This document shows, one piece after another, positions 2,843 through 20,279 of a stretch of 64,000 nucleotides of DNA. The notes below the pieces were generated by a model that searched no databases, was not told the DNA's origin, and worked only from the letters and a program-made list of their open reading frames with translations. This stretch comes from Candidatus Binatia bacterium (GTDB lineage Bacteria; Desulfobacterota; Binatia; Bin18): assembly GCA_022824615.1 (NCBI GenBank), contig JAJDZM010000072.1:18343-82342 (forward strand). The letters are read 5' to 3'. How positions within the stretch are numbered: position 1 is the stretch's first letter; each line of letters opens with the position of its first letter. The translations under genes were made by a program, and so were the position numbers.

Positions 2843-3025
2843 ACTTACTTGCTTATGGGGCGGGTCGGGTTTTTGCAAGCGTTGTCTGGAGAGGTATCCT
2901 TCCCTATAAGCGGGGGCGCTGTCTGGGAAGCGGGCAATAATGGGTGTGGCGGAGCAATACTTCTCCAGCCATCTCTGAGAGAAGAGGCTCCTCCGCGCGC
3001 TCCTGCTCGTATCGCTGGAAGAGTC

Positions 3026-4393: not shown

Positions 4394-4503
4394 ACTGAAC
4401 GGTTCTCCTTCTGCAAGCGGGTCGGTAGCTGTAGTGTATCAGCCCTTCATCTAACGGGTTTCCCCTGTTCGGTCAACGCGACCGGGCTCTCCTTGATGGT
4501 GTA

Positions 4504-4532
4504 TTGACAGAGATGGATTGCCAACCTAGTGT
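4504..4532 (+). promoter_or_regulatory. Candidate sigma70-type promoter for comEA (TTGACA-17 nt-TAGTGT)
   Basis: TTGACA at 4504-4509 and TAGTGT at 4527-4532, about 35 nt upstream of the comEA start. The -10 element is weak. Confidence 0.25.
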
Positions 4533-4565
4533 ATCTTCCTATCCTAATTCTTGTCAGGAGGAAGC

Positions 4566-4937
4566 ATGAAACAGAGATTTCTTTGGTTAGCGTTCGGAGT
4601 TTTTGCGGCCGGCTGTTTGATGGGGACGCCCGTCTGGGCGGATCACCATGAGGCGGCTGAAGCCGCTGGGAAGATGGCTGAGGCGGCTGAGACGGCGGCT
4701 TCAGCCGCTGAGGAACAAATGCCTGAAGCGGCCGGGCCGATTGACATCAACACGGCGGACGCTGCCGCCTTGCAGACTCTGCCCGGTATCGGGGAAACAA
4801 AAGCTGCGGCCATTATTGCCCATCGCGACGCAAACGGTCCGTTTGCGACTGTCGACGATCTGAAAAATGTCAAGGGCATTGGTGAGAAGACGCTTGAAAA
4901 GCTGAAAGAGAAAATCAGCGTAGGGGCCAGCGAATAA
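4566..4937 (+). CDS. comEA: ComEA-family competence protein (signal/anchor plus helix-hairpin-helix DNA-binding domain)
   Basis: INTADAAALQTLPGIGETKAAAIIAHRDANGPFATVDDLKNVKGIGEKTLEKLK is a classic ComEA HhH module. The ATG at 4566 is preceded by AGGAGGA; the ORF track start at 4551 is probably too far upstream. Confidence 0.85.
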   Translation: MKQRFLWLAFGVFAAGCLMGTPVWADHHEAAEAAGKMAEAAETAASAAEEQMPEAAGPIDINTADAAALQTLPGIGETKAAAIIAHRDANGPFATVDDLKNVKGIGEKTLEKLKEKISVGASE

Positions 4938-6923: not shown

Positions 6924-9422
6924 ATGTCTCGTCAGCCGTTCCGGCAAGTGCCTCTCTCGGGTCTTCGCCTGACGAACTGGCTTGAACGGTCAATCCTCAT
7001 CCACCTCGCTCTGGTTTATCTCTTGGGCCAGGTCGGTGTCGCCTGGGGCTGGCAGGTGGCTGCTCCCCTTTGGCTGGGCGGACTGCTGACCCTCAGTGTG
7101 GCCAGCTGGGCCATAGGCGGGTTCCGCTTGGCCGTTTTGGTCAGTTCGCTGAGTGGCGCTTTCCTGGCCGGTCATCTCACCCTCCAGCGAGTCTACGCGC
7201 CCGATTTTCCCGCGCACCACCTCCGACAGCTAGCTTTGCCGCAAAAAGTTATCCTTGAAGGCTGGCTGTTCCGGGAACCGGAACGGGGTCCGGCCCGCGG
7301 CCGATTATATCTTGAGGCGCAACGCCTCTGGCAAGACGGGCAGCCACGGCCGGCAACGGGCAAGGTGCTCGTCACCGTTCGTCATCTCCAGGACCGCTGG
7401 CAGTACGGCGATGTATTGCGGCTTCCGCTCAAAATCCGTACCCCGCGCAATTTTCATACGCCGGGCAGTTTTGACTATGCGGGCTATCTGGCCCGGCGGG
7501 GTCTCTATCTCACCGCTTTTGTGTGGGATGATAAGAAAATCGAAAAGATCGAGCCGGACAACAGGACCGGTACGGGGGTACGTCATCGGCTTGAACACGT
7601 TCGTCGGACGGTCGGCGCATTCTTTGACGCGCAGCTTTCAACCACAGCCGCGGCCATTCTCCGCGCGCTGATTATTGGCGATAAGAGCCGGCTCGATCCG
7701 GAGTTGCGCGACAGCTTCACGCGGGTGGGCGTTGCCCATGTGCTTGCCATTTCCGGGCTCCACATCGGCTTGGTTGCAGCGCTGGCGTATGGGGCCTGGT
7801 GGTGGCTCCTGGCACGGAGTCAGTATGTACTGTTGACGTGGTCGGTACCAAAACTGGCCGCGCTCTGTACGCTGCCGGTCGTACTGCTGTACGCCGGACT
7901 TGCAGGCGGTAGTGTTTCGACCTTGCGCGCGGTCATTATGGTGACGGTTTTTCTCACCGCGCTGCTGCTTGACCAAAAAGAGGAGGTCTTCCGCAGCCTT
8001 GCCCTTGCCGCCCTGGTCGTGTCGCTCATCTGGCCGGGAGCCGTCTTTGATGTGTCTTTTCAGCTTTCCTTTGTCGCTGTCCTGTCTATTTTTCTTGGTC
8101 TGTACCGTTTTCAATCCTGGTGGGATAATCGGGACGAAACGCGTGCGGTCCACCTCTCCCCGTGGCGGCGGCGACTCCGGCGCTGGGCGGTCCTCTATGG
8201 CCTGGTTTCTTTGAGTGCGACAGTTGGGACGCTCCCGCTCGTTGCGACCCATTTTCATACCGTCCCGCTGGTTGGACTTGCGGCCAACCTGCTGCTGGTG
8301 CCTTTCCTGGGGAGTGCCGCTGTAGTGCTGGGCCTGGCTACGGCCGCGCTGGTGTTTATTCATACGGGCGCTGCGACTCTGGTCGTGTGGTGTGCCGGAG
8401 TCGTGACCTCGCTCGGGGTGTGGATGGTCGAAGCTATTGCCACCTTGCCCTTTGCCGCCGCTCACTTTGTGACCCCCACGCTTTTTGAACTTGTTCTGTT
8501 TTATACCTTCTGCGTTTTCCTCCTGTTCGCCGCCCGCCTCCAGCCATCCGGGCTGCGACGGGCCTTTTTCTCCTGCCTGTTCGGCCTGATGCTCTGTGAC
8601 GGCCTGTACTGGCTGACGCAGCGTTATTTCCAGACGGACCTGCGGGTCTCTTTTCTCGATGTCGGACAGGGTGATGCGGCCGTGGTCGAGTTTCCCGGCT
8701 CCCACGTCATGGTCATCGACGCAGGCGGATTCATGAGTCAGACGTTTGATTCGGGTCGGGCTATCGTTGCGCCTTTCGTGTGGCAGCAGAAAATCGGACG
8801 CATAGACACGCTGGTCCTCAGCCACCCCAATCTTGACCACTATGGCGGGCTGGAGTTTCTGGCCGAGCACTTTGGCGTCACGGCCTTCTGGTTCAACGGT
8901 GAAGAGCGGCCGGATAGTCAGCGCTTCCAGCGGTTGATGGCGACGTTGCAAGAGAACGACATCCAGACCCACACCTTGTGTAGTGATACGCCGGACCGGG
9001 AAATCGGCGGAGTGCAGATCCACATCCTGCACCCTCCCTGTGGCCAGACCGGACTGGATACAAACGACGCCTCTCTCGTGCTCCGTCTCAGTCACGGGGA
9101 GGTGGATATGCTGTTTTCCGGGGATGTTGAGGCCGCGGGGGAGGACAGTCTGCTTGCGACACCGGTCCAGCTTGAGAGCGAGATTCTCAAAGTCCCCCAT
9201 CACGGCAGCCGCAGTTCAAGTACTCAGCCCTTTCTCGAATCCGTGTCCCCTCAGGTCGCGGTCGCCTCGCTCGGCTATCGAAACCGCTTTCGTTTTCCAG
9301 CTCCAGAGGTGGTGGACCGCTATGAACGGCAGGGCACGGCATTCCTCAGAACGGACCAGGCGGGGACGATAACGGTGCGGAGCGACGGGAAGCGTTATCG
9401 GGTTGAGACCTTCTTGCCGTAG
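6924..9422 (+). CDS. comEC: ComEC/Rec2 DNA internalization competence protein with C-terminal metallo-beta-lactamase domain
   Basis: 832 aa and polytopic. Competence-domain motif GVAHVLAISGLHIG, and MBL motifs (FLDVGQGDAAVV...LSHPNLDHYGG...VPHHGS). Confidence 0.9.
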   Translation: MSRQPFRQVPLSGLRLTNWLERSILIHLALVYLLGQVGVAWGWQVAAPLWLGGLLTLSVASWAIGGFRLAVLVSSLSGAFLAGHLTLQRVYAPDFPAHHLRQLALPQKVILEGWLFREPERGPARGRLYLEAQRLWQDGQPRPATGKVLVTVRHLQDRWQYGDVLRLPLKIRTPRNFHTPGSFDYAGYLARRGLYLTAFVWDDKKIEKIEPDNRTGTGVRHRLEHVRRTVGAFFDAQLSTTAAAILRALIIGDKSRLDPELRDSFTRVGVAHVLAISGLHIGLVAALAYGAWWWLLARSQYVLLTWSVPKLAALCTLPVVLLYAGLAGGSVSTLRAVIMVTVFLTALLLDQKEEVFRSLALAALVVSLIWPGAVFDVSFQLSFVAVLSIFLGLYRFQSWWDNRDETRAVHLSPWRRRLRRWAVLYGLVSLSATVGTLPLVATHFHTVPLVGLAANLLLVPFLGSAAVVLGLATAALVFIHTGAATLVVWCAGVVTSLGVWMVEAIATLPFAAAHFVTPTLFELVLFYTFCVFLLFAARLQPSGLRRAFFSCLFGLMLCDGLYWLTQRYFQTDLRVSFLDVGQGDAAVVEFPGSHVMVIDAGGFMSQTFDSGRAIVAPFVWQQKIGRIDTLVLSHPNLDHYGGLEFLAEHFGVTAFWFNGEERPDSQRFQRLMATLQENDIQTHTLCSDTPDREIGGVQIHILHPPCGQTGLDTNDASLVLRLSHGEVDMLFSGDVEAAGEDSLLATPVQLESEILKVPHHGSRSSSTQPFLESVSPQVAVASLGYRNRFRFPAPEVVDRYERQGTAFLRTDQAGTITVRSDGKRYRVETFLP

Positions 9423-9460
9423 TGAAGTCGCCAGACGGATTGCTCCAGGTACGAGCATCA

Positions 9461-9590
9461 CCCCTGTGAAAACAGGGGCAGGAATCCAGCCCCTCAACCC
9501 TCCGTTCGTCCTGAGCGTAGCAAAGCGAAGTCGAAGGACTGGATGCCGGATCAAAGCCTGCCCCGGACACGAGCCGGGGTCCGGCATGAC
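9461..9590. repeat. REP/MITE-like palindromic repeat cluster (copy A)
   Basis: Hairpin CCCCTG-tgaaaa-CAGGGG (9461-9478). Unit CCGTTCGTCCTGAGCGTAGCAAAGCGAAGTCGAAGGAC (9502-9539) recurs at 24995-25024. Nested hairpin GGATGCCGGATCAA...GTCCGGCATGACG (9541-9590) recurs in shorter form at 57536-57562. Confidence 0.7.
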
Positions 9591-9630
9591 GAGAGCGGAA
9601 TGGCAGGGCTACAGCCTATCGGAAAACGCT

Positions 9631-9906
9631 CTAGGTCTTCTCCTTCAGCCGGCCCGACAAGTACTTGTGGATCACGCTGGATAATAGCGTCTGATACGGG
9701 ATGCCTTCCTCCCGCGCTCGCGCGTGCGCGAGGTTGAAGTCACGTTCGGTCACCCGCAGGTTGACCCGCCGGGTCTTATGAAAGGTGCTGCGGGCCGCCT
9801 GACGGGCACTCTCCATCTCACGTTCAGCCCCACGGGCGGCCCGCAATTCGCCTCGCTCGAACTTCTCCAGGATTTCCCGCTCTTCGGCATTCAGTTGGTC
9901 GCTCAC
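9631..9906 (-). CDS. brnA: CopG/RHH-type antitoxin (BrnA-like)
   Basis: 91 aa. AEEREILEKFERGEL...RVNLRVTERDFNLAHARAREEGIPYQTLLSSVIHKYLSGRL matches the antitoxin family paired with BrnT-type toxins. Its GTG start overlaps the upstream toxin stop (GTGA). Confidence 0.7.
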   Translation of the reverse strand: MSDQLNAEEREILEKFERGELRAARGAEREMESARQAARSTFHKTRRVNLRVTERDFNLAHARAREEGIPYQTLLSSVIHKYLSGRLKEKT

Positions 9907-10184
9907 GATGATTGCCTCCTGTGATAGTCCCGAGTCGCCTTCCGGCTGGGGATGATCGTCTTCAGGAACCTCGTGCCGTCCGCCTCAGTCACGAAGGGGA
10001 CAAGGTAGAGGTACCGTTCGATGTCCACGACGTAGACCATCTGCCCAGGGTATTTCCCCTGATTGGGGTGTTCCAGTACGTTTACCAGACCACCTTGTTC
10101 AATCTCGGTGACAATACGCTCGAAGGAGATTCCTCGCTGCTCAACGAGTTGTTGGTTCTTTTCCGTAATTCCTGCACAAGAACG
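9903..10184 (-). pseudogene. brnT: BrnT-like toxin, apparently 5'-truncated (no canonical start codon)
   Basis: Not in the ORF track. Manual translation gives ...ITEKNQQLVEQRGISFERIVTEIEQGGLVNVLEHPNQGKYPGQMVYVVDIERYLYLVPFVTEADGTRFLKTIIPSRKATRDYHRRQSS*. The frame is bounded upstream by TGA at 10185-10187, and no ATG/GTG/TTG occurs before the internal Met. The expected N-terminal M-x-F-x-W-D motif is missing. Confidence 0.55.
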
Positions 10185-10271
10185 TCAGCCCTGCGAAAGA
10201 CGTGACGGTCACAGCGTTTGAGTGGTTTAAGGGGATTGCCTTTTGACCACCGCTTCGCCACAACAGGGGCC

Positions 10272-13064
10272 ATGCCACGCCTCTCCTGGAACGAAATCCG
10301 CGCCCGCGCCGCCACATTTGCCGAGGAGTGGCGGGACGCCGCCTATGAGAAAGGCGAGACGCAGAGTTTCTATAACGACTTCTTTGACATCTTCGGCGTC
10401 AAGCGGAGCAGCGTTGCCCGCTATGAAGAGCGTGTCAAGAAGCTGGACAATCGTTCAGGTTTCATCGACCTATTCTGGCCCGGCGTCCTCCTGGTTGAGC
10501 AAAAGAGCGCTGGCCGTGACCTGACCAAAGCATCCAGACAAGCCGGCGCCTACTTCGACGCCCTGCCCGAGCAAGACCGCCCGCGCTATATCCTGGTCAG
10601 CGACTTTCAGACCTTTGAGCTGTATGACCTGGACGAGCGGGAACGCGCGTTTTTCGCTCTGGCCGACCTGCCTCAGCACGTGGAGAAGTTCGGCTTTATC
10701 CTGGGCGTACAGAAGCGCACCTTCAAGGATCAGGACCCGGTCAACATTCAGGCGTCCGAACTCATGGGCGACCTGCACGACGCGCTCGAACAGTCCGGCT
10801 ACACCGGCCACGACCTCGAACGCTTGCTCGTCCGTACCGTGTTCTGTCTGTTTGCTGATGATACCGGCATCTTCGAGCCACGCGACATTTTTCTTGATTT
10901 CCTGGAAACGCGTACCCGCGAGGACGGTTCCGACTTGGGCCTCTGGCTCTCACGGCTTTTTCAAGTGCTCAATACGCCGGAGGACACACGCCAAAAGAAG
11001 CTAGACGAAGACTTGGCGCGTTTCCCGTATGTGAACGGCGACCTGTTCCGTGGCCCGCTACGTATTCCCGACTTTGACGCCCCCATGCGGCAGGCATTGC
11101 TCGACGCCTGCCGGTTCGACTGGACGGCCATCTCACCAGCGATTTTCGGGGCACTGTTCCAATCGGTCATGGAACCCGCAGAACGCCGCTCTCAGGGCGC
11201 GCACTACACCACTGAGCAGAACATCCTGAAGGTCATCGAACCGCTGTTTCTGGATGACCTGCGGGCGGAGTTCGCCCGGTTACAAGCCCGCAAGGACACC
11301 CATCGACGGCTGGAACTGCATCGCTTTCAACAGCGTTTGGGGACGTTGCGTTTTCTTGACCCGGCCTGCGGCTGTGGCAATTTTCTTATCATTGCCTACC
11401 GCGAGTTGCGCGCCCTAGAGATTGAGGTTTTGAAGGAATTGCGCGCCTATCGTGACGACACGGAAACGGGGGAGCTGGACGTGACGGCCCTGTCGGTCGT
11501 CAACGTAGACCAATTCTACGGCATTGAAATCGGGGAGTTTCCAACTCACATTGCCGAGACTGCACTGTGGATGATGGACCACATCATGAACAACCGGCTC
11601 AGCCTGGAGTTCGGGCAAACCTTCGTGCGTATCCCGCTGACACACTCACCCCATATTCTGCACGCCGACGCCCTGGAAACCGACTGGGCAAGCCTGCTGC
11701 CACCGGAGGAATGCGCGTATGTGTTCGGTAATCCGCCATTTGTCGGCGCAAAGTTTCAGAGCCAGGAACAGCGGGCACAGGTGCGCGGCCTTGCCGGTCT
11801 GGGCGGTAGCGGAGGGACTCTGGATTACGTCACGGCTTGGCTCCTCAAGGCGGGCACGTATATCACAGGGCCGACCCGCATCGGCTTTGTGGCGACCAAC
11901 TCAACGACACAGGGCGAACAGGTGGGCCAGTTGTGGCCCCTGCTATTTGACCGCTACCGGCTGGAGATTGCCTTTGCCCATCGCACTTTCGCCTGGGGCT
12001 CGGATGCACGTGGCAAGGCGCATGTGCATGTTGTCATTCTGGGGTTGGACCGGCGGGACAACGCGCGGACGGAGAAACGTCTGTTTTCCTACTCCGCCCT
12101 CAACGGTGACCCAGAGGAAACCCACCACACTGCGCTGTCACCCTACCTGTTCGACGCTGGTGGCTTGGCCGACCCGCATTTAACAGTACGCAAAGAAAGC
12201 CGCCCGATTAACAGAATGGAGAAGCTGATTATCGGGTCCAAGCCCATTGACGGCGGATATTATATCTTTGACTCGGAGGAACGTGCAGCCTTGCTGTCCG
12301 TGGAGCCGGACGCCGCACCCTTCCTGCGACCGTTTGTCGGTGCCCGCGAATATCTGCAAGGCGGAACGCGCTGGATTCTGGCACTGCACGACGCGCCTCC
12401 GGCAACGCTGGCACGGCTGCCATATATCAAGGAGCGCATTGCTGCGGTCCGCGCGTACCGTCAAGCCAGTAAGAGCGCGCCTACGCAAAAGCTGGCTGAA
12501 ACCCCGAGGCTCTATCATGTGAACGTTCTTCCCTCTGCACCGTTTCTGGTCATCCCCGAGGTCAGTTCTGAACGGCGGGAGTATATCCCTATCGGTTGGT
12601 TGGAGCCGCCTACGGTTCCGAGCAATCTGGTCCGGGTCATTGAGAATGCTACACTCTCGGACTTTGCGCTGCTCACCTCCGCCATGCACATGGCTTGGCT
12701 ACGTCACATCGGCGGGCGGCTGAAAAGCGATTACCGTTATTCCATCGGCCTGGTCTACAACACCTTCCCCACACCACCCGAAGACGCAGACCTGCCAAAG
12801 CTGGAACCGCTGGCCCAAGCCGTGCTCGCCGCCCGCGCCGCCCATCCCGGCGCAACCCTGGCCGACCTGTACGACCCCGACCTGATGCCGCCCAATCTGC
12901 GTAAGGCCCACACGGCACTCGACCGCGTCGTAGACCGCCTCTACCGCCGTGGCGGCTTCGCCTCCGAACGTGAGCGGGTGGAACATCTGTTTGGGTTATA
13001 TGAGAAGATTACCGCACCGTTGGCGGTGAAGCGGAAGCCGAAAAGGAAACGGCGGCGCAGTTAG
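10272..13064 (+). CDS. MmeI-family Type IIL restriction-modification enzyme (fused PD-(D/E)XK endonuclease, N6-adenine methyltransferase and specificity domain)
   Basis: N-terminus LSWNEIRARAATFAEEWRDAAYEKGETQSFYNDFFDIFGV...GFIDLFWPGVLLVEQKS (D...E-x-K nuclease motif as in MmeI). SAM-binding motif FLDPACGCGNFL. Catalytic GNPPFVG. About 930 aa, similar to MmeI. The ATG at 10272 is preferred over the TTG at 10218. Confidence 0.85.
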   Translation: MPRLSWNEIRARAATFAEEWRDAAYEKGETQSFYNDFFDIFGVKRSSVARYEERVKKLDNRSGFIDLFWPGVLLVEQKSAGRDLTKASRQAGAYFDALPEQDRPRYILVSDFQTFELYDLDERERAFFALADLPQHVEKFGFILGVQKRTFKDQDPVNIQASELMGDLHDALEQSGYTGHDLERLLVRTVFCLFADDTGIFEPRDIFLDFLETRTREDGSDLGLWLSRLFQVLNTPEDTRQKKLDEDLARFPYVNGDLFRGPLRIPDFDAPMRQALLDACRFDWTAISPAIFGALFQSVMEPAERRSQGAHYTTEQNILKVIEPLFLDDLRAEFARLQARKDTHRRLELHRFQQRLGTLRFLDPACGCGNFLIIAYRELRALEIEVLKELRAYRDDTETGELDVTALSVVNVDQFYGIEIGEFPTHIAETALWMMDHIMNNRLSLEFGQTFVRIPLTHSPHILHADALETDWASLLPPEECAYVFGNPPFVGAKFQSQEQRAQVRGLAGLGGSGGTLDYVTAWLLKAGTYITGPTRIGFVATNSTTQGEQVGQLWPLLFDRYRLEIAFAHRTFAWGSDARGKAHVHVVILGLDRRDNARTEKRLFSYSALNGDPEETHHTALSPYLFDAGGLADPHLTVRKESRPINRMEKLIIGSKPIDGGYYIFDSEERAALLSVEPDAAPFLRPFVGAREYLQGGTRWILALHDAPPATLARLPYIKERIAAVRAYRQASKSAPTQKLAETPRLYHVNVLPSAPFLVIPEVSSERREYIPIGWLEPPTVPSNLVRVIENATLSDFALLTSAMHMAWLRHIGGRLKSDYRYSIGLVYNTFPTPPEDADLPKLEPLAQAVLAARAAHPGATLADLYDPDLMPPNLRKAHTALDRVVDRLYRRGGFASERERVEHLFGLYEKITAPLAVKRKPKRKRRRS

Positions 13065-13183
13065 CGACTGAAACGAGGAGCTACAGGTCGTACACGGAGA
13101 TGCGAAATTATTACCGATTCCGACAAGGTTTATCGGAAATGTGAGATCAAAATTGCTTCGACATAGTAAGACAAGGAGTGGGG

Positions 13184-13708
13184 ATGGCCGACAACAAACC
13201 CTCAAAACCTGAAGATGCATCACAACTGATAACGAACCCCAAAGAACCATATTCAGCCTTCATAACGGAACTGAGATATAGATATGAACTCCTCTGGCGC
13301 ATACGCCAAATCTACGCTACCGCGATCCTTGCCATAACTGCATTTACAAAAGGCATCGAGCCTACTCCATGTCAGGGACTAGCACTGTTGATACTAATTG
13401 CTGTCTCATTTGTCGCGGTAATAATTACGGACCGGTCTTATCAGAAGAAAAAATACGAATTGCTCAACAATCTTCACAAAATCGAAGAGCATCTTAGGTT
13501 TCCTGACTATTGCCGCCTAGGGAGACCGGATAATATCCGTTGTTGGGATTTGTGGAAAAATTCCATACTGTGGATCATAGTCATCTTCGCACCGGTTCTT
13601 GCAATACTGGACGGAGTGGAGATTTGTAACTGCGTCTCGCAGGAGGGTCAGAACGGTGCTGTTCAAATTCTCTCCCCGTTCCTCACTAATGGCGCGAAGC
13701 CAACGTGA
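13184..13708 (+). CDS. Small multi-TM protein (2-3 TM, SLATT-like topology), possibly chimeric at its 3' end
   Basis: AAGGAG lies 5 nt upstream of the ATG. AT-rich codon usage. Hydrophobic helices IYATAILAITAF, GLALLILIAVSFVAVII and ILWIIVIFAPVLAIL. The last ~25 codons are read antisense through a vapB gene fragment (13632-13732). Confidence 0.55.
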   Translation: MADNKPSKPEDASQLITNPKEPYSAFITELRYRYELLWRIRQIYATAILAITAFTKGIEPTPCQGLALLILIAVSFVAVIITDRSYQKKKYELLNNLHKIEEHLRFPDYCRLGRPDNIRCWDLWKNSILWIIVIFAPVLAILDGVEICNCVSQEGQNGAVQILSPFLTNGAKPT

Positions 13709-13732
13709 GAGTTCGGCATCGATATTCCGAAG
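13632..13732 (-). pseudogene. Fragment of an RHH antitoxin gene (codons ~8-41 of vapB); left copy of a 101-bp direct repeat
   Basis: 91 of 101 nt are identical, without indels, to 15029-15129. It encodes LRNIDAELSRWLRAISEERGENLNSTVLTLLRDA versus LRNIDAELSRRLRAISEERGESLNSTVLALLRDA in the intact gene. It lacks a start codon. Confidence 0.85.
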
Positions 13733-13750
13733 TAGCCAGAGGATAATCCG

Positions 13751-14722
13751 ATGAAGACAACACCCCATGCATTTCTTTGCCACGCCTCGGAAGACAAAGA
13801 GATTGCCAGACCGCTTGCGGAAGAACTTCAGCGTAACGGTGTAGACACTTTCTATGATAAATGGGAAATCGGTCCCGGAGACAGCCTGCGCCAAAAAGTG
13901 GAGGAAGGGATAGGAGACTGTACCCACTTCATCGTGCTTCTGACGCCTATCAGTATCGAGAAGCCGTGGGTACAAGCAGAAATCGATGCGGGCTTTGTAC
14001 GGAATCTTGAAGGCCAGTGTAAATTTATTCCGCTACGTTGCGGCCTAGATGTTGACAGCCTTTCTCCACTCTTGAAGGGAAAACATTCTCCTGCACTCGA
14101 TGGGAGTCACGATGAGAGCAACATCAAGAAATTGATCGACTCCATCTATGGAATCAGCGATAAACCACCATTGGGAGAGCCGCCGCAAGTCATTCAAGAG
14201 AGTTCTGGCGGAGCTTTGGGGCTATCGCCTGCGACCGAAGCCATCGTCAGGATTATGATAGAAGGCTCAGAAAATGGAATGGCCGACGGTCAAATGCTTC
14301 CTCTAGGACAAGTAAAGGAAGCAACAGGCCTTGAGGATGACGACATTATAGACGCCATTGAGGAACTTGAAAGGCAAGGATATGTAGAGGTGGTCTACAC
14401 GCAAAGTATCGATCCTCTCGATGGTGAGCATGTCTGGGCTAAGGATTCTCTATTCGCCACTTTCGATAAGTATTTCAAGCCATGGAATCCTGAAAACGAC
14501 GCACTGCAAATCGCAGCCGACCTCGTGAACGGTAAAGACGGTACCGTACAGGCAATGGCTCAGGAATATAATTGGCCTCCTCGGCGAATGAACCCCGCCG
14601 TGAGTTATCTTATTGAGAACGACTTCGTTGGTTCCAGTCCCGAACTTGGAAGTCACCCTTGGGTGAACCATTGGCTCTATAAAACCCCAAGCACTCGCCG
14701 CTTCGTCCGAGATCGTTCGTAA
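13751..14722 (+). CDS. TIR-domain protein with an uncharacterised ~190-aa C-terminal domain
   Basis: AFLCHASEDKEIARPLAEELQRNGVDTFYDKWEIGPGDSLRQKVEEGIGDCTHFIVLLTPISIEKPWVQAEIDAG is a textbook bacterial TIR N-terminal domain. The C-terminal part has a possible winged-helix-like stretch (DDIIDAIEELERQGYVEVVY). Confidence 0.85.
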   Translation: MKTTPHAFLCHASEDKEIARPLAEELQRNGVDTFYDKWEIGPGDSLRQKVEEGIGDCTHFIVLLTPISIEKPWVQAEIDAGFVRNLEGQCKFIPLRCGLDVDSLSPLLKGKHSPALDGSHDESNIKKLIDSIYGISDKPPLGEPPQVIQESSGGALGLSPATEAIVRIMIEGSENGMADGQMLPLGQVKEATGLEDDDIIDAIEELERQGYVEVVYTQSIDPLDGEHVWAKDSLFATFDKYFKPWNPENDALQIAADLVNGKDGTVQAMAQEYNWPPRRMNPAVSYLIENDFVGSSPELGSHPWVNHWLYKTPSTRRFVRDRS

Positions 14723-14748
14723 TCAAACTCCTGTGGGTTGAGTGAATC

Positions 14749-14766
14749 CGTAACCCGAAAAGCACT
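14749..14766 (+). repeat. 18-nt motif CGTAACCCGAAAAGCACT (copy 1), 27 nt after the TIR gene stop
   Basis: Exact 18/18 match to 16655-16672. A degenerate relative (TGTAACCTGACATC) lies at about 15306. Confidence 0.8.
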
Positions 14767-14830
14767 TCAAAGGAGTGGGATCATTTCGCTGTCTGGGCGA
14801 TGAGTTCCCGTAAGTCTTCGTGCTGACTCC

Positions 14831-14908
14831 TCATTGCAATCTGAAATGTCCGGCGCGTAGAGGCGAGTACGCACTTGTGTCAAGAACCAGCCGCTCGGTC
14901 GGCTTCAC
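14831..14908 (-). pseudogene. vapC: Truncated PIN-domain toxin (vapC stub, 25 codons)
   Basis: The GTG overlaps the vapB stop (GTGA). VKPTERLVLDTSAYSPLRAGHFRLQ* is the typical N-terminus of a VapC PIN toxin (LVLDTS...), then a premature stop. The rest of the gene is absent. Confidence 0.65.
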
Positions 14909-15150
14909 CCCCAATACCGTTGGTCAACGACTCGTTGCGAACGCAACGCAACAGTAAACTCGTCGAGGTCAGCGGGTGTCCACGTCACATAGCGACGCAA
15001 ACGGGTACGCCGCGTCTCCAGGTCCACCGCGTCTCGCAGAAGGGCTAGGACGGTGCTGTTCAAACTCTCACCCCGCTCCTCACTAATGGCGCGAAGCCGG
15101 CGTGAAAGTTCGGCATCGATATTCCGAAGCGTAATCTGTGTGACCGCCAT
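14905..15150 (-). CDS. vapB: Ribbon-helix-helix antitoxin (VapB/FitA-like)
   Basis: 81 aa. MAVTQITLRNIDAELSRRLRAISEERGESLNSTVLALLRDAV is a typical RHH antitoxin N-terminus. It sits immediately upstream of the vapC stub. Confidence 0.75.
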   Translation of the reverse strand: MAVTQITLRNIDAELSRRLRAISEERGESLNSTVLALLRDAVDLETRRTRLRRYVTWTPADLDEFTVALRSQRVVDQRYWG

Positions 15151-15190
15151 ACTGCCCCCCGCATAGCGTTATGAAAACATGAGGTCAAGA

Positions 15191-15298
15191 ATGGGTCAGG
15201 TGGAGCACCTGTTTGGGTTGTATGAGCAAATGATGGTGCCGTTGGCGGTGCAGCGGAAGCGCCGGGAGCGTGGAGTCACCCTCTGTAGGCCAAGTTAG
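15191..15298 (+). pseudogene. Remnant of the 3' end of a second MmeI-family gene
   Basis: 15199-15260 is 51/62 nt identical (no indels) to 12977-13038 at the end of the intact MmeI-like gene. It encodes (M)GQVEHLFGLYEQMMVPLAVQRKRRER... versus RVEHLFGLYEKITAPLAVKRKPKRKR. Confidence 0.8.
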
Positions 15299-15387
15299 CC
15301 GAAGGTGTAACCTGACATCTTTATCAAAGGTCAACAAGTGTTCCAGGGTTTGCTAGGTACAAATCAAATCTTCATAGGAAGGGTGCT

Positions 15388-16644
15388 ATGAGAGAAGACG
15401 ATGTGAGATTGGTCAAATTTTGGAGACAGGGTGCTGATGCAGAGTACACCGGGATGCTTTTTTTGAGGACAGAGGAGAAATCCTCCTTAGTTTTGGACGA
15501 GATACACCCATTTAGCGACCGGAGTATTAGCTATAAATTCTTGGGTAAAACCTACTCAGGAGAAGCTTGCACTCTCTACAGTTGCAGGCCTGAGGGTGAG
15601 CCGGATAACTCGGGAAGAACCATTTTCTATATTGAGAACGTTGTTATTGGGGACCTACCGCCCAACTCGGAATGTAAACTAAAAAAGATGGAGTTTATTT
15701 TTTACGGCGTTGATCCGTGGTTCAGTAATAGGCGGAGATATTTACGCCCCGGCGAAACAGAAAGGGTTGCAGAGTACAATGATGCCCCAGATAAAGACAT
15801 ATTGTTAACCCTAAAGAGGGTCGGATTGCCGCATAGCGTTGACGGAAATAATTGCTGGTTGCAGGTAGAAATCAGTTCAGACTACTCGTTACGGGGCATT
15901 GACCATTTTATCCAGATTAGAGAGGACCTCAATGCGTTTCTTAATTACGCTATGCAGGGCATAGTTAAGACAAACGAGATAAGTTTTTGTACCTCGAATA
16001 CGGGTGGCGAGGTCAGAATATATAGCCATCACCGTATTTTTAACAGTCATGGCGCTTTCAACAGCAGGCTTGGTGATCCTATACGACTGACTGGACTAGG
16101 GCACGGCAAAACGTTTGAGGGGTTTCGGGACGAACTCCCCGCGATTTTAAGTAGATGGTCCTGGCTGTATGGTACATGCAAATGGGAGTTCAATCAGTTA
16201 TTTGAATCACGACTTTTAAGAGAAAGAAGCCCTAATAACTGGTTTATGGCAGCATGTATCCTTCTGGAGGCAATCTATCCTAAGCTTATTCAAACCGCAA
16301 AGGATAGGCCAAATGTGAAGGAGTGTATTGACGAACTTAATAGAATCTTTGGAGTGTCGATTAAGCCTGAACTCTCCAGCCTTGTGAAGGCAGTAAGAAA
16401 CAAGCTTTCTCATGGAGGCCAGTTGAGAAACGATAAAGAAGAAGGAATGGCTAATGAGTTTCTTTCTGCTTCTGACGGAGTGTCAATATTGGCGGAGGAC
16501 TTGGAACGCTTGCTGTTTTGCTACATATCTGCCGGGCTAGGAGTAGACCCTAAAAAGGGGGATGTGACGCGAGACGGCCCGGCTTTTACGTTTACGGCTG
16601 ATAACACAAGAAATTTGCGCCAAGTGTACCCGGAGAATCGTTAG
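15388..16644 (+). CDS. ApeA-like defence protein (ApeA-type N-terminal domain plus C-terminal HEPN with R-x4-H)
   Basis: 418 aa, AT-rich. N-terminus VKFWRQGADAEYTGMLFL...LVLDEIHPF...FLGKTYSGEACTLYSC follows the ApeA N-domain pattern (W..., G-x-L, L-x-L, G-x(4)-G-x(3)-TL-x-x-C). The C-terminus contains VRNKLSHGG (R-N-K-L-S-H, an Rx4H HEPN motif). Confidence 0.6.
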   Translation: MREDDVRLVKFWRQGADAEYTGMLFLRTEEKSSLVLDEIHPFSDRSISYKFLGKTYSGEACTLYSCRPEGEPDNSGRTIFYIENVVIGDLPPNSECKLKKMEFIFYGVDPWFSNRRRYLRPGETERVAEYNDAPDKDILLTLKRVGLPHSVDGNNCWLQVEISSDYSLRGIDHFIQIREDLNAFLNYAMQGIVKTNEISFCTSNTGGEVRIYSHHRIFNSHGAFNSRLGDPIRLTGLGHGKTFEGFRDELPAILSRWSWLYGTCKWEFNQLFESRLLRERSPNNWFMAACILLEAIYPKLIQTAKDRPNVKECIDELNRIFGVSIKPELSSLVKAVRNKLSHGGQLRNDKEEGMANEFLSASDGVSILAEDLERLLFCYISAGLGVDPKKGDVTRDGPAFTFTADNTRNLRQVYPENR

Positions 16645-16654
16645 GAGGCAGAAG

Positions 16655-16672
16655 CGTAACCCGAAAAGCACT
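16655..16672 (+). repeat. 18-nt motif CGTAACCCGAAAAGCACT (copy 2), 11 nt after the ApeA-like gene stop
   Basis: Exact match to 14749-14766. Confidence 0.8.
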
Positions 16673-17253
16673 CTATACTGACAATGGGAGTCCCAAAGCT
16701 CATCTAAGAGAAAAAAGTGCTCTTTTTACCCCGTATTTCGCCCTAAGAGAAACCCCGAATCCAACAATAACAGTCACTTACGGCGTTTTCCGGCCATTTT
16801 TTTCGAAATGAGACAAAACCCGTCAGGACACGCCCACACCCCGCCTCTTGAAATCGCTATTTATTCGGCAAAAACCCATTCTCATCCGCTTTTATTACAT
16901 TCTCATTCTTTCTGTGCTTTCTCACGCAGTGCCAATGGGCTGCGGAGGTTGCGGACAGCCCCGCCAATATGGTATGAAGAAAGCGTGTCGTACATCAAAA
17001 AACCCGTCCCGTACTCACGCATAAAAGTTGAAATAAAAAAGCTAAGTCCTTGATTTTTCAGGGAGTCGAGAAAAAAAGGGGGGGGACCCCTGCCATTTTC
17101 GCCCGAGTGCTGGCTTTATTCGCTCACTCCAGCAAGCGCACAAGTGAAAATATCTAAGCCTGCCTAAAAACCAGGCAAAATGGTCTTTCAACCGGTTGTG
17201 GAACGACAGGCAGGAGACACAGGGCTGATTTGGTCACGCGTCTCCCGCCGTCC

Positions 17254-19428
17254 TCAAAACCGATAGGTATAGCGCACCTTGAAGCGACCCTCGCGGCCGA
17301 TGGAGCGGAAGCCGCCCTCTTCGTCCAGCCAGCGCTGGTTGAAGACCAGAAAGATGTCGTTGCCCGGTTCGATAATCCAGCGAATGCGCGTGTTAATGCT
17401 GAACACGTCCGATACGTTGTCATACTGGATCAGGCTGAACCAGGACAGATTGGGGTTGACGGCTATGTCCAGCCGCACCCGCAGCAGACGCGTGACAAAA
17501 TTGCCCTCAGGCAGCCGGACATCGCTCTGGAGATACTCCGGGCTCAGGAACAGGCGCGGGCCGGGCTGAAAATTAAGACGCAGGTTCCAACTGTCGCGCT
17601 TGCCGCTGTAATAGTCGCCCCAGAAATGGGCCAGACTGGCCGACAGCTTGCGTTTATCCGCGGTCTCGGCTTTGACCATATAACGGCGAAAGGTGTGACG
17701 GCCGGGCAACAGCCGGACACCACGGCTGATCTCAAAATCTTCGGTCAGGCGTTCCAACTGCTGCCAGGCCCGAAACATGAGGGTGTCGCCGCTCTCGAAA
17801 CGCCACTCACAGGGAAAGACGATGTTGCGGGTGAGGAGGCGGTCCGTGGCCTGGTCGGTAATATAATTGCCGTCGAAAGCACAGGCGACCTGCCGCGTTC
17901 CCCAGCGCCCAGGGCGCGGGGCCGCCTGAAGGAACCAGCCAAAGCGTCGAATGCCGGTGCGCGGCACAAAGCCCATGCTGGCGTCAAAATCCCGTTGCAC
18001 CTCGCGATAGGTGCCGAATATCGTCCAGGTATCGTTGGGCAGGTTGATCTGACTGCCCCAGGCCCAGTTCTTGCGCGCCGTGGGACGAAAACTCTTTAAG
18101 ACAAACGAGGACAGGGTGAGGTTGCGCCTTCCCAGAAATCTGGTTGTTTTATACAGAAAGTCATGCCCGTAGAGGCCGGTCGCATCCCCGTTCTCCGGTG
18201 TCCGCCGGGTCGCGATCAGTCCTACCGAGGCCTGTTCTCCGACGTCGCGCTTGAGTCGGATCACGCTGAAATTCTCGCCCGGTACAGGGTCACGTTCTTG
18301 GGTCTGGGCGTTGAGTATCCCCAGGGAATACTTGCCAACTCGACCGCTGAGTTTCGCGCCGCCAATCAGGTCAACCGGTTTGCCGTCGTCGGCAATGCCG
18401 ACCCGCCGGCTGAAAAAAGGGATAATCACCAACGGCCCCGAGGTCGGGGTCAGGCCGTCAACCGCAAAATTGGGGGCGTCCTCCAGAAAGAACTGCCGCT
18501 TCTCGGGGAAAAAGAGTGAGAAGCGCGTCAGATTGACCTGCACATCGTCCGTCTCGGCCTCGGAAAAGTCAGTATTGAGCGTCAGGCTGAGTGTCAGGCC
18601 GGGGGTGGGTTTGTAGAACAGGTCAAAACCCGGCTTAAAGGACGTGGCATCGCGGCGCACCTCGGTGGTCAGAAACGGGGAAAAATCGAGTCCCAGACCC
18701 TGGGACCTGCCGCGCAGTCCGGTGAGTCGGCCCGCGCGTGAGACCCGGTTGAAGTCCAGGCTCTGGAGGTAGCCGCTCCAGACCGTTTCTTCGTTCACCC
18801 GCTTGATGATGCGCTGGACGTTGAAACCCCAGCTCGATTGTCCTGGGGCATAGCTGAGGGTCTGAAACGGAATTTCAAATTCCGCGCTCCAGCCGCTCGG
18901 CGCGCGCGCGGTCTTGACGTTCCAGATGCCGTTCCAGTCCCGGTTCTCGGTCTCCCCCTCGTCTCCGATGAGTTCATCCACCCGCGCCCCAACCGAGTTG
19001 GTTTGAAATTTGAATGCGTTGCGACGATCCGCAAACGTATCGAACAGGAGTGTCACCCGATCATCCGCGGCCAGGTCCGCGTCCCGGTTGAAGCGGGTAG
19101 CAACCGCCGCACTCGGGTCCGAGTCGTGACAGAGCACCCCGACGTAGAGATGGGTCGCCGTGTACAGGACGCGCACCTCGGTTGGTTGGGAGGCCGGGGC
19201 GCCTTCGTCGGGCTCGCGTTGGCGGAAGTCGCTGCCGACCGGCGCGTTCTGCCAGGCCGGCTCGGTCAGCCGACCGTCGAGGACGATGGAGCCGGGAATG
19301 CGCACGGCCTGCAACGCGACCGGGGCAAACACCGAGACTTCCATATCCTCCAGGGGGATGGGCTGGAGGGTGCTCCCGGACTGCGATGTCGGTGTATCGG
19401 CGCCGGCCGGGATGACCAGCGCCAGCAC
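17254..19428 (-). CDS. DUF5916 / carbohydrate-binding family 9-like outer-membrane protein
   Basis: The N-terminal region IVLDGRLTEPAWQNAPVGSDFRQREPDEGAPASQPTEVRVLYTATHLYVGVLCHDSDP is typical of CBM9-DUF5916 proteins. The C-terminus ends ...RFKVRYTYRF (beta-barrel-like terminal Phe). The signal peptide seems to extend upstream of the annotated GTG (RRLISLLIAALAVLALVIPAGA). Confidence 0.7.
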   Translation of the reverse strand: MLALVIPAGADTPTSQSGSTLQPIPLEDMEVSVFAPVALQAVRIPGSIVLDGRLTEPAWQNAPVGSDFRQREPDEGAPASQPTEVRVLYTATHLYVGVLCHDSDPSAAVATRFNRDADLAADDRVTLLFDTFADRRNAFKFQTNSVGARVDELIGDEGETENRDWNGIWNVKTARAPSGWSAEFEIPFQTLSYAPGQSSWGFNVQRIIKRVNEETVWSGYLQSLDFNRVSRAGRLTGLRGRSQGLGLDFSPFLTTEVRRDATSFKPGFDLFYKPTPGLTLSLTLNTDFSEAETDDVQVNLTRFSLFFPEKRQFFLEDAPNFAVDGLTPTSGPLVIIPFFSRRVGIADDGKPVDLIGGAKLSGRVGKYSLGILNAQTQERDPVPGENFSVIRLKRDVGEQASVGLIATRRTPENGDATGLYGHDFLYKTTRFLGRRNLTLSSFVLKSFRPTARKNWAWGSQINLPNDTWTIFGTYREVQRDFDASMGFVPRTGIRRFGWFLQAAPRPGRWGTRQVACAFDGNYITDQATDRLLTRNIVFPCEWRFESGDTLMFRAWQQLERLTEDFEISRGVRLLPGRHTFRRYMVKAETADKRKLSASLAHFWGDYYSGKRDSWNLRLNFQPGPRLFLSPEYLQSDVRLPEGNFVTRLLRVRLDIAVNPNLSWFSLIQYDNVSDVFSINTRIRWIIEPGNDIFLVFNQRWLDEEGGFRSIGREGRFKVRYTYRF

Positions 19429-19454
19429 GGCCAGCGCTGCGATGAGCAGAGATA

Positions 19455-20279
19455 TCAGTCGTCTTCCTTGAACAGCGCATCGCGCCAGTCGAGCGCGGCG
19501 CGCAGGCCTTTTTCCTTCCGGATCTGGTTGAACGTTTCCTGCTCTTGCGTCCGGGTGGTGTCAAACATGACGACCAGATCGAGATTCTGGTAGATGCTGT
19601 TCAGAAAGCCCATGTTCTCATACGCCCGGTTAATGGCGGCCTTGTTAAACTTCACCCCGACCTGAGCGATCTTCACCAGTTTGCGAGCCGTCTTCTCGCA
19701 CTCACGCATGAGCTGGTCGTGCGGCACGACGCGGTTAATCATGCCCAGGCGTTCAGCCTCGTGTGCGGAGATCATTTCCCCGGTCAGGAGCAGTTCCTTT
19801 GCCTTGGCAAACCCGACGCTGAACGGCGTAACCAGAACCGGAGGGCCGGTCCCAAACCGGATTTCCGGTTCGCCCAATACCGCTTGCTCGGAGGCAATTT
19901 TAATATCGCATAACTGGGCGAGTTCGCACGCACCAGCCAAGGCATAGCCGTTAATCGCGGCGATATACGGTTTGCTGGAATGCCAGATCTTGAGAAAAAT
20001 CTCGATGTTGGATTTCAGATCAGACCGCCAGCTATCCGCGGAGCGGTCGTAGAGTTCGGGCTCGCCCTCTGGTGGAGCGATGTTGAACCCCGCGGAAAAC
20101 GCCCGGCCGGCTCCGGTCAGAATCACGACCCGGATGTCGTCATCGGCTTCGATCGCATCAAGCGCCTCGCCCAGTTCGGCCATCAGTTCCTTGCTGAATG
20201 AATTGAGCTTCTGTGGCCGGTTGAGGGTCAGATAGCCGATGGCATCCTTCTTCTCGAATATCAGGTTCTGATACGTCAT
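19455..20279 (-). CDS. Enoyl-CoA hydratase/isomerase family protein
   Basis: Crotonase fold motifs (AIGYLTLNRPQKLNSF...VVILTGAGRAFSAGFNI...AAINGYALAGACELAQLCD). The ATG at 20279 is preceded by AGGAGG; the track start is 20318. Confidence 0.85.
   Translation of the reverse strand: MTYQNLIFEKKDAIGYLTLNRPQKLNSFSKELMAELGEALDAIEADDDIRVVILTGAGRAFSAGFNIAPPEGEPELYDRSADSWRSDLKSNIEIFLKIWHSSKPYIAAINGYALAGACELAQLCDIKIASEQAVLGEPEIRFGTGPPVLVTPFSVGFAKAKELLLTGEMISAHEAERLGMINRVVPHDQLMRECEKTARKLVKIAQVGVKFNKAAINRAYENMGFLNSIYQNLDLVVMFDTTRTQEQETFNQIRKEKGLRAALDWRDALFKEDD

What the first reader, a model, noticed from the sequence alone, without database searches (positions are those of the whole stretch)
12977..15298. 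Two independent pairs of short homologies bracket the TM/TIR cassette as recombination scars
Seen directly: (a) 13632-13732 and 15029-15129 are 101-bp direct repeats with 91/101 identity and no indels. The right copy lies inside an intact RHH antitoxin gene; the left copy is a start-less fragment (codons ~8-41) ending 18 nt before the TIR start codon. (b) 12977-13038 (3' end of the intact MmeI-like gene) and 15199-15260 are 51/62 identical with no indels. The second copy is an orphan 35-codon tail ending in its own stop. (c) The vapC downstream of the intact vapB stops after 25 codons. Inference: at least two homologous or illegitimate recombination events swapped cassettes here. Both the TM/TIR pair and the ApeA-like gene sit in the equivalent slot just downstream of an MmeI-type 3' end, which suggests a conserved-flank cassette-exchange hotspot.
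Basis: seen in the sequence. Interest (0 to 1): 0.6.

Follow-up and report, generated by a model that had tools for sequence, protein, structure and literature searches.

The report
Recombination scars in an MmeI-anchored defence island
The short repeats are real leftovers of an antitoxin gene and of a restriction-enzyme gene, left by repeated cut-and-paste of defence genes at a chromosomal hotspot; this is a clear example of a known kind of genome turnover, not a new mechanism.

Summary
Both repeat pairs exist as described: 13629-13732 / 15026-15129 (93/104) and 12977-13038 / 15199-15260 (51/62), no indels. A third pair is exact: 14749-14766 = 16655-16672 (18/18). They are not assembly artefacts, because contigs from two separate sponge-metagenome studies span the junctions.

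All three lie in a ~7.8-kb defence island (window ~9423-17208) between comEC and a convergent DUF5916 gene. These two genes are adjacent in five congeners.

Relatives show the older unit. It is an MmeI-type enzyme, then a 417-aa TIR protein, then vapC and vapB on the opposite strand, then an orphan MmeI tail. One metagenome contig holds this unit with TIR and vapCB intact, though its MmeI gene is in pieces. The vapB-promoter/tail junction recurs in at least six genomes.

So "TM/TIR" is not one cassette. The TM gene plus the vapB fragment replaced the first ~90 TIR codons. A second patch replaced most of vapC. The ApeA-like gene sits after the orphan tail.

Five other loci carry an orphan MmeI tail after a cassette: NERD/SEC-C, Cas13a plus CRISPR, a 383-aa unknown, TIR-vapCB, and a HEPN-like protein with vapCB. 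Their breakpoints differ, which argues for homology-anchored illegitimate recombination rather than site-specific integration.

Interest is moderate.

The parts
6924..9422 (+). comEC, the left core flank of the hotspot
   Evidence: Pfam Competence, DUF4131 and Lactamase_B. It lies 45-52 bp from the right-flank gene in G025, G023, G005, G015 and G013.
9423..17208 (.). Variable defence island of ~7.8 kb, absent from the empty sites
   Evidence: From 13065 onward the G+C content falls from the host's ~60% to 44-50% over the TM/TIR genes and to 44% from ~15300 to ~17100. The MmeI gene itself is at host-like ~58-60%, and the vapB/MmeI-tail stretch (14750-15300) is a 57% patch.
9631..10184 (-). brnA-like antitoxin gene and a start-less brnT-like toxin gene
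   Evidence: Weak Pfam matches to CopG_antitoxin and BrnT_toxin. Paralogous copies exist elsewhere in congeners.
10218..13064 (+). Intact MmeI-family type IIG/IIL restriction-methylase, 948 aa; its last 88 nt hold repeat A (12977-13038)
   Evidence: All five MmeI Pfam domains are present. PADLOC REase_MTase_IIG scores 1158 bits.
13178..13708 (+). TM gene; residues 1-150 are native and residues 151-176 are read from the antisense strand of the vapB fragment
   Evidence: Only seven distant relatives (113-209 aa) were found, and they match residues 19-143. There is a weak match to 8xMP, PF24838. No relative occurs in the genus.
13629..13732 (-). B': an internal fragment (codons 8-42) of a second vapB allele
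   Evidence: 93/104 identical to B and 85-88% to six other alleles. It has no start codon.
13733..14745 (+). 5'-truncated TIR gene (ORF 13751-14722, 323 aa); 13734-13750 still encodes PEDNP from the linker of the 417-aa form
   Evidence: TIR_2 at 1e-24. Most relatives are about 417 aa, with an extra 94-aa N-terminal domain.
14749..14766 (+). Repeat C, an exact 18-mer
   Evidence: 18/18 identical to 16655-16672, and these are the only two copies in the genome. It matches 17/18 in L001, next to gene X.
14767..14835 (-). X': the last 14 codons of a 51-aa gene X, plus ~10-16 nt of filler
   Evidence: QHEDLRELIAQTAK* compares with L001 QHEALREFITRTARQTSPF* and G027 ...QHEALRELIARTAK*.
14831..14914 (-). 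Truncated vapC; only ~23 native codons remain
   Evidence: Homology to an intact 138-aa PIN gene ends at 14845.
14905..15198 (-). Intact vapB (RHH, 81 aa, 14905-15150) with its ~48-nt upstream region; it contains repeat B (15026-15129)
   Evidence: Pfam FitA-like_RHH. The block is conserved, with the same end point, in L001, G002, G026, G025, G027 and L097.
15199..15298 (+). A': an orphan MmeI tail (last ~32 codons, frameshifted near its end)
   Evidence: The same junction GGGTCAGG|TGGAGCAC occurs in G002, G026, G010, G027 and L097.
15388..16644 (+). ApeA-like gene (weak ApeA_NTD1 match); no relatives found
   Evidence: The stretch 15222-17229 is absent in G026 and in the run X3 relative.
16655..16672 (+). 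Repeat C'
16757..17082 (.). AT-rich non-coding stretch
   Evidence: Its relatives follow the orphan MmeI tail in G018, and others occur on contigs C213 and C154 of the same assembly.
17254..19428 (-). DUF5916/CBM9 gene, the right core flank

Best explanation
The repeats are dead remnants left by serial recombination in a defence-gene hotspot.

Shown:
- The stretch ~9423-17208 is an island between comEC and a convergent DUF5916 gene. These two genes are neighbours in five congeners.
- Within the island, an MmeI-type restriction-methylase gene acts as an anchor.
- The older arrangement is MmeI -> 417-aa TIR gene -> <-vapC <-vapB | orphan MmeI tail. A related metagenome contig (L097) holds this order with TIR and vapCB intact, although its MmeI gene is called in three pieces.
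- The vapB-promoter/tail junction is identical in at least six genomes and occurs at several chromosomal sites.
- The window lineage carries further illegitimate joins. (i) The TM gene plus a 104-nt piece of another vapB allele (B') replaced the MmeI-TIR spacer and the first ~90 TIR codons, leaving an internal Shine-Dalgarno sequence and Met. (ii) A patch holding the 18-nt motif and the 3' end of gene X replaced the last ~115 codons of vapC, leaving vapB as an orphan antitoxin. (iii) The ApeA-like gene lies between the orphan tail and the AT-rich DNA that follows such a tail in G018.

Inferred:
- Cassettes enter by host homologous recombination anchored in the conserved MmeI 3' end. The route is either Campbell/ends-in integration of a circle, or homology-facilitated illegitimate recombination of linear DNA.
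- Either route leaves an intact gene, then the cargo, then a 5'-truncated copy of the tail.
- The fragments themselves have no function.
For: - Repeats are significant.
- Junctions are spanned by contigs from two studies.
- Empty sites and alternative contents occur at the same locus in 28 congeners.
- L001: TIR plus intact vapCB, with homology limits at 13731 and 15200, exactly at the edges of B' and A'.
- L097, L098 and L099: MmeI immediately upstream of the long TIR gene. L097 also holds vapC-vapB|tail.
- The TIR family is mostly 417 aa.
- Orphan tails after a cassette occur in G011 (NERD + SEC-C), G027 (CRISPR + Cas13a, PADLOC 2e-222), G018 (383-aa gene), G055 (HEPN-like protein + vapCB + XRE) and L097.
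- Orphan-tail start points differ: query positions 1, 4, 55, 73, 101, 117 and 128.
- The two tails in one locus share derived substitutions in G027, G011 and L097.
- G002 shows the same pattern with comEC as the anchor: a 56-nt orphan comEC tail, 86% identical.
- vapC is truncated at different points in the window, G010 and G002, and is lost in G025, G026 and G027, while vapB is kept.
Against: - No circular or excised form was seen. Contigs drop rare variants.
- A and A' are only 82% alike over 62 nt, too little for a recent crossover between them.
- MmeI N-terminal fragments are about as common as tails in the genus, so plain decay of tandem paralogs could produce some orphan tails.
- The source of TM and of B' is unknown, because neither has a close relative.
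- The order of the window-specific events cannot be fixed.
Confidence: 0.8

Rival explanations
1. Decay of tandem MmeI paralogs. The orphan tails are what remains of once-complete second MmeI genes that stood in tandem with the first and were eroded by deletions and insertions. Under this view no tail-anchored cassette capture occurred.
For: MmeI genes occur at up to five copies per genome, and many N-terminal and internal fragments exist. G025 has a full MmeI followed 2.9 kb later by an N-terminal MmeI fragment and then vapB. G010 has an MmeI 5' fragment fused to vapC'.
Against: The two tails in one locus share derived changes, in L097 even beyond the stop codon. The identical vapB/tail junction occurs at different chromosomal sites. 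The same signature appears with comEC, which is single-copy.
Confidence: 0.2
2. Site-specific integration. Cassettes target an attachment site in the MmeI 3' end through a recombinase encoded elsewhere, and they carry a replacement tail, as islands in tRNA genes do.
For: An intact gene, cargo and a displaced 3' end in direct orientation is the classic attL/attR picture.
Against: The island has no ORF of 120 aa or more besides MmeI, TM, TIR and the ApeA-like gene, and no recombinase domain was found among them. Breakpoints differ between loci. The longest exact stretch shared by A and A' is 12 nt. The 18-nt motif occurs in GTDB genomes only at about the frequency I expect by chance (30 hits, of which one is from a related genome).
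Confidence: 0.05
3. Assembly chimera or collapsed strain mixture in a 308-contig metagenome-assembled genome.
For: The genome is a fragmented MAG holding pieces of other MmeI paralogs on contigs C56, C180 and C281. Summed depth doubles over the MmeI 3' end.
Against: Independent Logan contigs from two studies span each junction with 0-2 mismatches and even depth. The vapB/A' junction is present in six other assemblies, several of them single-contig genomes.
Confidence: 0.02
4. The fragments are functional small elements. Examples would be a 39-aa peptide from 15179-15298, or B' acting as an antisense or operator element that controls TM/TIR.
For: The frame from ATG 15179 is also open in L097 and G002. 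A hairpin followed by a T-run sits at 15197-15211.
Against: The tail's 3' end is frameshifted in the window, fused to a comEC fragment in G002, and cut at 15221 in G026 and G010. B' occurs in this lineage only. Promoter and terminator matches are at chance level.
Confidence: 0.04

Closest known systems
Defence-island integration hotspots between conserved core genes (E. coli pan-genome hotspots, PMC10121019; the core defence hotspots of Pseudomonas, cited from my own knowledge)
   Same: Two core genes are adjacent in some strains and separated by varied defence cargo in others. The content is mosaic and includes toxin-antitoxin remnants.
   Different: No integrase or mobile-element backbone is present in the island. 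Inside it, a restriction-enzyme gene's 3' end serves as a second, internal anchor with its own duplicated scars.
Sequential displacement arrays: T6SS effector-immunity loci of Vibrio cholerae with orphan immunity genes (PMC8189183, citing Kirchberger 2017), and orphan cdiA-CT/cdiI and Rhs tips (from my own knowledge)
   Same: New modules enter by homologous or homology-facilitated illegitimate recombination anchored in a conserved upstream gene. Old pieces stay downstream as 5'-truncated orphans, and the protective partner (here vapB) outlives the toxin.
   Different: Here the duplicated piece is the conserved end of an unrelated anchor gene, not a polymorphic toxin tip. The cargo is non-homologous phage-defence genes rather than alternative toxin ends.
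Homology-facilitated illegitimate recombination and Campbell-type insertion-duplication (PMC3240628)
   Same: One homologous anchor plus one illegitimate join, or a single crossover of a circle, predicts an intact gene, then cargo, then a truncated duplicate with variable breakpoints and 0-4 nt of microhomology. All of these are seen.
   Different: This is only inferred. No experiment was done and no intermediate was observed.
Phase-variable restriction systems with alternative 3' ends (hsdS shufflons; from my own knowledge)
   Same: Extra partial copies of a restriction gene lie beside the intact one.
   Different: The repeats are direct rather than inverted. The orphan covers only the last ~32 codons, beyond the target-recognition domain (Pfam MmeI_TRD, residues 653-853). 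No recombinase is present.

Membership tests
Defence-island hotspot between core genes | Flanking core genes are adjacent (empty site) in related genomes | tested here: met
   comEC and the DUF5916 gene lie 45-52 bp apart in G025, G023, G005, G015 and G013.
Defence-island hotspot between core genes | Different cargo at the same site in different genomes, enriched in defence genes | tested here: met
   Inserts of 0.3-18 kb occur in other congeners. The window cargo is an MmeI restriction-methylase, a TIR protein, vapBC, brnTA and an ApeA-like gene.
Sequential-displacement orphan array | An intact anchor gene followed by cargo and a 5'-truncated copy of the anchor's conserved end, in direct orientation | tested here: met
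   Seen in the window, G011, G027, G018, G055 and L097, and with comEC as anchor in G002.
Sequential-displacement orphan array | Breakpoints differ between independent events | tested here: met
   Orphan tails start at seven different positions.
Site-specific integrative element | A recombinase gene in or beside the element | tested here: not met
   The only ORFs of 120 aa or more in 9423-17208 are MmeI, TM, TIR and the ApeA-like gene, and none has a recombinase domain.
Site-specific integrative element | An identical core sequence at both junctions and at the same gene position in all insertions | tested here: not met
   The longest exact run shared by A and A' is 12 nt. Breakpoints vary.
Integron-like cassette with a common recombination site | A shared site at cassette ends that recurs widely | tested here: not met
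   The 18-mer follows two cassette genes here, but a scan of the genome-contig collection (one genome for each of 185,579 bacterial and archaeal species) gave only 30 hits. That is about what I estimate by chance, and only one hit comes from a related genome.
Assembly artefact | Contig ends, depth breaks or conflicting joins at the junctions | tested here: not met
   Contigs of X1 and X2 cross the junctions at even depth of about 8 and about 5.
Restriction-gene shufflon | Inverted partial copies covering the specificity domain, plus an invertase | tested here: not met
   The copies are direct repeats. The tail lies outside the target-recognition domain. No recombinase is present.
Homology-facilitated illegitimate or Campbell-type recombination | RecA-dependent anchoring and an observable circular or linear donor intermediate | not testable with these tools
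   Only the end products are seen. Contig-level read data cannot show rare joints.

The most novel reading that the evidence does not exclude
In this bacterial lineage (Candidatus Binatia, by the record title of relative L001), the conserved last 60-250 bp of MmeI-family genes may work as a portable homology arm, with no recombinase involved. Defence cassettes flanked by two tails would then hop between the many MmeI paralogs and between genomes, and pop out again, by host recombination alone. That would be a RecA-driven analogue of an integron, with the restriction gene as the platform. A further possibility is that MmeI and the 417-aa TIR protein form a functional pair, since they are adjacent in three contigs.
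Probability: 0.25. Interest if true: 0.6.

Novelty: new member of a known kind. Interest (0 to 1): 0.4.

Why it matters
This locus gives a base-level record of how a defence island is built without any integrase. A restriction gene's conserved end, and in one congener the end of comEC, is duplicated each time new cargo arrives, and antitoxins outlive their toxins. It corrects the annotation of the locus: the TIR gene is a truncated member of a 417-aa family that normally follows MmeI, and it is not the partner of the TM gene. It also points to the slot after MmeI genes in this lineage as a place to look for new defence genes. Cargo seen there so far includes Cas13a, a NERD/SEC-C protein, two unknown proteins with Rx4H motifs, and the ApeA-like orphan.

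Tried and rejected
- **Close relatives of TM and the ApeA-like gene.** Scans of one genome per species found none. Word-indexed protein searches found only the query itself. The full HMMER scan for TM gave seven distant proteins, and the one context I looked up had no TIR gene.
- **Rfam on the island.** No match.
- **The 18-nt motif as a general recombination site.** Rejected. It has two copies in the genome and occurs elsewhere at about the frequency I expect by chance. It is absent next to gene X in G027 and G018.
- **ApeA-like gene vs the 383-aa and 514-aa cargo proteins of congeners.** No similarity.
- **An orphan comEC tail in the window.** None found.
- **Promoter and terminator scan.** Chance level.
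- **The short TIR in contig L096 as a shared truncation.** Rejected. That contig keeps the N-domain DNA with a one-base shift and has only 2x coverage.
- **Practical limit.** Loci from other genomes could not be read in the Python box, so the comparisons were made with the alignment tools.

Full report
**Observation**

The window holds three internal repeat pairs in 9000-17400, and no others.

- D1: 13629-13732 vs 15026-15129, 104 nt at 89%. E = 5e-35.
- D2: 12977-13038 vs 15199-15260, 51/62. E = 3e-12.
- An exact 18-mer, CGTAACCCGAAAAGCACT, at 14749-14766 and 16655-16672. These are its only copies in the 4.98-Mb assembly.

None of the pairs has indels.

Gene content:

- an intact MmeI-family enzyme at 10218-13064, with all five MmeI Pfam domains
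- a 176-aa membrane protein at 13178-13708
- a 323-aa TIR protein at 13751-14722
- a 27-codon vapC stump at 14831-14914(-)
- an intact 81-aa FitA-like RHH antitoxin at 14905-15150(-)
- an orphan MmeI tail at 15199-15298
- a 418-aa gene with a weak ApeA N-domain match at 15388-16644

G+C drops from ~60% to 44-50% in 13065-14750 and in 15300-17100. A 57% patch covers vapB and the tail.

**Not an artefact**

The sequence occurs in sponge metagenomes. Contigs made independently from run X1 cover 13003-14114 and 14118-15690 without mismatch. Contigs from X2, a different study, cover 13401-14113, 14089-14938 and 15211-15421 with 0-2 mismatches and even depth. The vapB/tail junction also exists in six other genomes or contigs.

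**The site is a hotspot**

A 12.6-kb query was run against 28 genomes of the same genus.

- comEC (6924-9422) and the DUF5916/CBM9 gene (17254-19428) are 45-52 bp apart in G025, G023, G005, G015 and G013.
- They are separated by other inserts of 0.3-18 kb in other congeners.
- G011 has comEC-brnTA-MmeI at the same site as the window. G018 has comEC-brnTA followed only by fragments of MmeI.
- G010, G002 and G026 retain only vapC'-vapB-A', or parts of it, at this site.
- G023 matches the right flank at 99% but comEC at 88%, so a recombination boundary lies across the site.

**What the TIR gene really is**

One related Candidatus Binatia genome (L001 = G001) carries a TIR homologue (81% nt identity), followed by an intact 138-aa PIN vapC and vapB. 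Homology with the window runs 13731-14745 and 14845-15200. Its limits therefore fall exactly at the right edge of B' and the left edge of A'.

Most of the 415 TIR relatives are about 417 aa and have an extra 94-aa N-terminal domain. The window keeps only the last five linker codons (PEDNP, 13734-13750) before an internal Met. L001 was truncated independently about 12 nt further upstream. Both truncations keep the GAGGA sequence and the Met, so a short protein can still be made. This last point is an inference.

In three contigs with 75-81% identical long TIR genes, an MmeI gene lies directly upstream. It is full-length and ends 68-71 nt before TIR in L098 and L099. It is broken into pieces in L097. 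L097 continues with vapC, vapB, the vapB promoter and an MmeI tail, joined at the same bases (GGGTCAGG|TGGAGCAC) as in the window.

The older unit is therefore MmeI -> TIR(417 aa) -> <-vapC <-vapB | orphan tail. More distant TIR relatives (49-55% identity) stand alone elsewhere.

**Window-specific changes**

1. The TM gene has only seven distant relatives, which match its residues 19-143. Its residues 151-176 are the antisense reading of B'. No congener has the TM gene. TM plus B' replaced the MmeI-TIR spacer and about 90 TIR codons. B' is 85-89% identical to every known vapB allele, so it is not a recent copy of B.
2. The stretch 14746-14844 holds the 18-mer and the last 14 codons of a 51-aa gene X, plus filler. 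It replaced the distal ~115 codons of vapC. Gene X lies next to orphan MmeI tails in G027 and G018.
3. The ApeA-like gene sits between A' and the AT-rich DNA that follows an A'-type tail in G018. In G026 and in the run X3 relative, 15221 joins 17230 directly.

Microhomology at the joins is 0-4 nt.

**The tail scar is recurrent**

MmeI paralogs occur in 30 of 151 relatives, at up to five copies per genome and with many fragments. Orphan tails follow cargo downstream of a full or decayed MmeI gene in five other loci:

- G011: a NERD + SEC-C protein
- G027: a CRISPR array plus Cas13a, then X|tail, then vapB|tail
- G018: a 383-aa gene with an Rx4H motif, which also follows MmeI genes in G025 and on contig C281 of this assembly
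- G055: a 514-aa HEPN-like protein, vapCB and an XRE/M78 gene
- L097: TIR-vapCB

Tail breakpoints differ between loci. The orphan usually shares derived substitutions with the adjacent full gene, in L097 even past the stop codon. G002 shows the same signature with comEC as the anchor: a 56-nt orphan comEC tail fused to A'. vapC is cut at different points in the window, G010 and G002. It is lost in G025, G026 and G027. vapB is retained in all of these.

**Mechanism**

The pattern is an intact anchor gene, then cargo, then a 5'-truncated duplicate, with variable breakpoints and no recombinase in the island. This fits host recombination anchored in the conserved gene end, either Campbell/ends-in integration or homology-facilitated illegitimate recombination (PMC3240628). 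It is analogous to the sequential displacement that leaves orphan immunity genes in T6SS loci (PMC8189183).

Site-specific integration is unlikely. The 18-mer is not a general site, because it recurs in a one-genome-per-species collection only at about the frequency I expect by chance. Plain decay of tandem paralogs remains a partial alternative.

**Verdict**

This is a well-documented example of a known process, of moderate interest.

Noticed in passing
L097 2536-6254; L098 2131-6257; L099 2140-6254: A 417-aa TIR protein with an unannotated 94-aa N-terminal domain directly follows an MmeI-type gene in three metagenome contigs. This could be a functional restriction-TIR pair. The short forms in the window and in L001 arose by separate 5' truncations that keep an internal GAGGA and Met.
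   Followed up: partly
L056 (G027:C1:1717000-1724600) 590-4903: A CRISPR array and a Cas13a gene (PADLOC 2e-222) occupy the slot right after an MmeI gene in a genome of the same genus. They are followed by gene X and an orphan MmeI tail.
   Followed up: partly
L052 (G002:C6:1375400-1377000) 148-203 and 999-1054: An orphan comEC 3' end (56 nt, 86% identical) is fused to the orphan MmeI tail. This is the same duplication signature with a different anchor gene.
   Followed up: yes
window 9458-9639: A short element just after comEC has dozens of 80-180-nt copies per genome across the genus (MITE/REP-like). A related element is also inserted between TIR and vapC in L097.
   Followed up: no
window 15186-15211: The vapB/tail junction forms a perfect 6-bp hairpin (CAGGTG-GAG-CACCTG) followed by a T-rich run. 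The hexamer GGGTCA just before it is present once in the window and twice in G002, G026, G010, G025 and the run X3 relative.
   Followed up: no
genome contigs C56, C180, C281: Pieces of at least one more MmeI paralog (86-93% aa identity) sit on short contigs of the same assembly. C281 continues into the 383-aa Rx4H gene that follows MmeI in G018 and G025. Run X2 also holds a contig in which an A'-type tail is preceded by more MmeI coding sequence.
   Followed up: partly
window 17209-19500 vs 6988-9418: G023 is 99% identical on the right flank but only 88% on comEC, so a recent recombination boundary runs through the hotspot.
   Followed up: no
window 16757-17082: AT-rich non-coding DNA after the ApeA-like gene has relatives on contigs C213 and C154 and beside the orphan tail of G018. 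Its nature is unknown.
   Followed up: no
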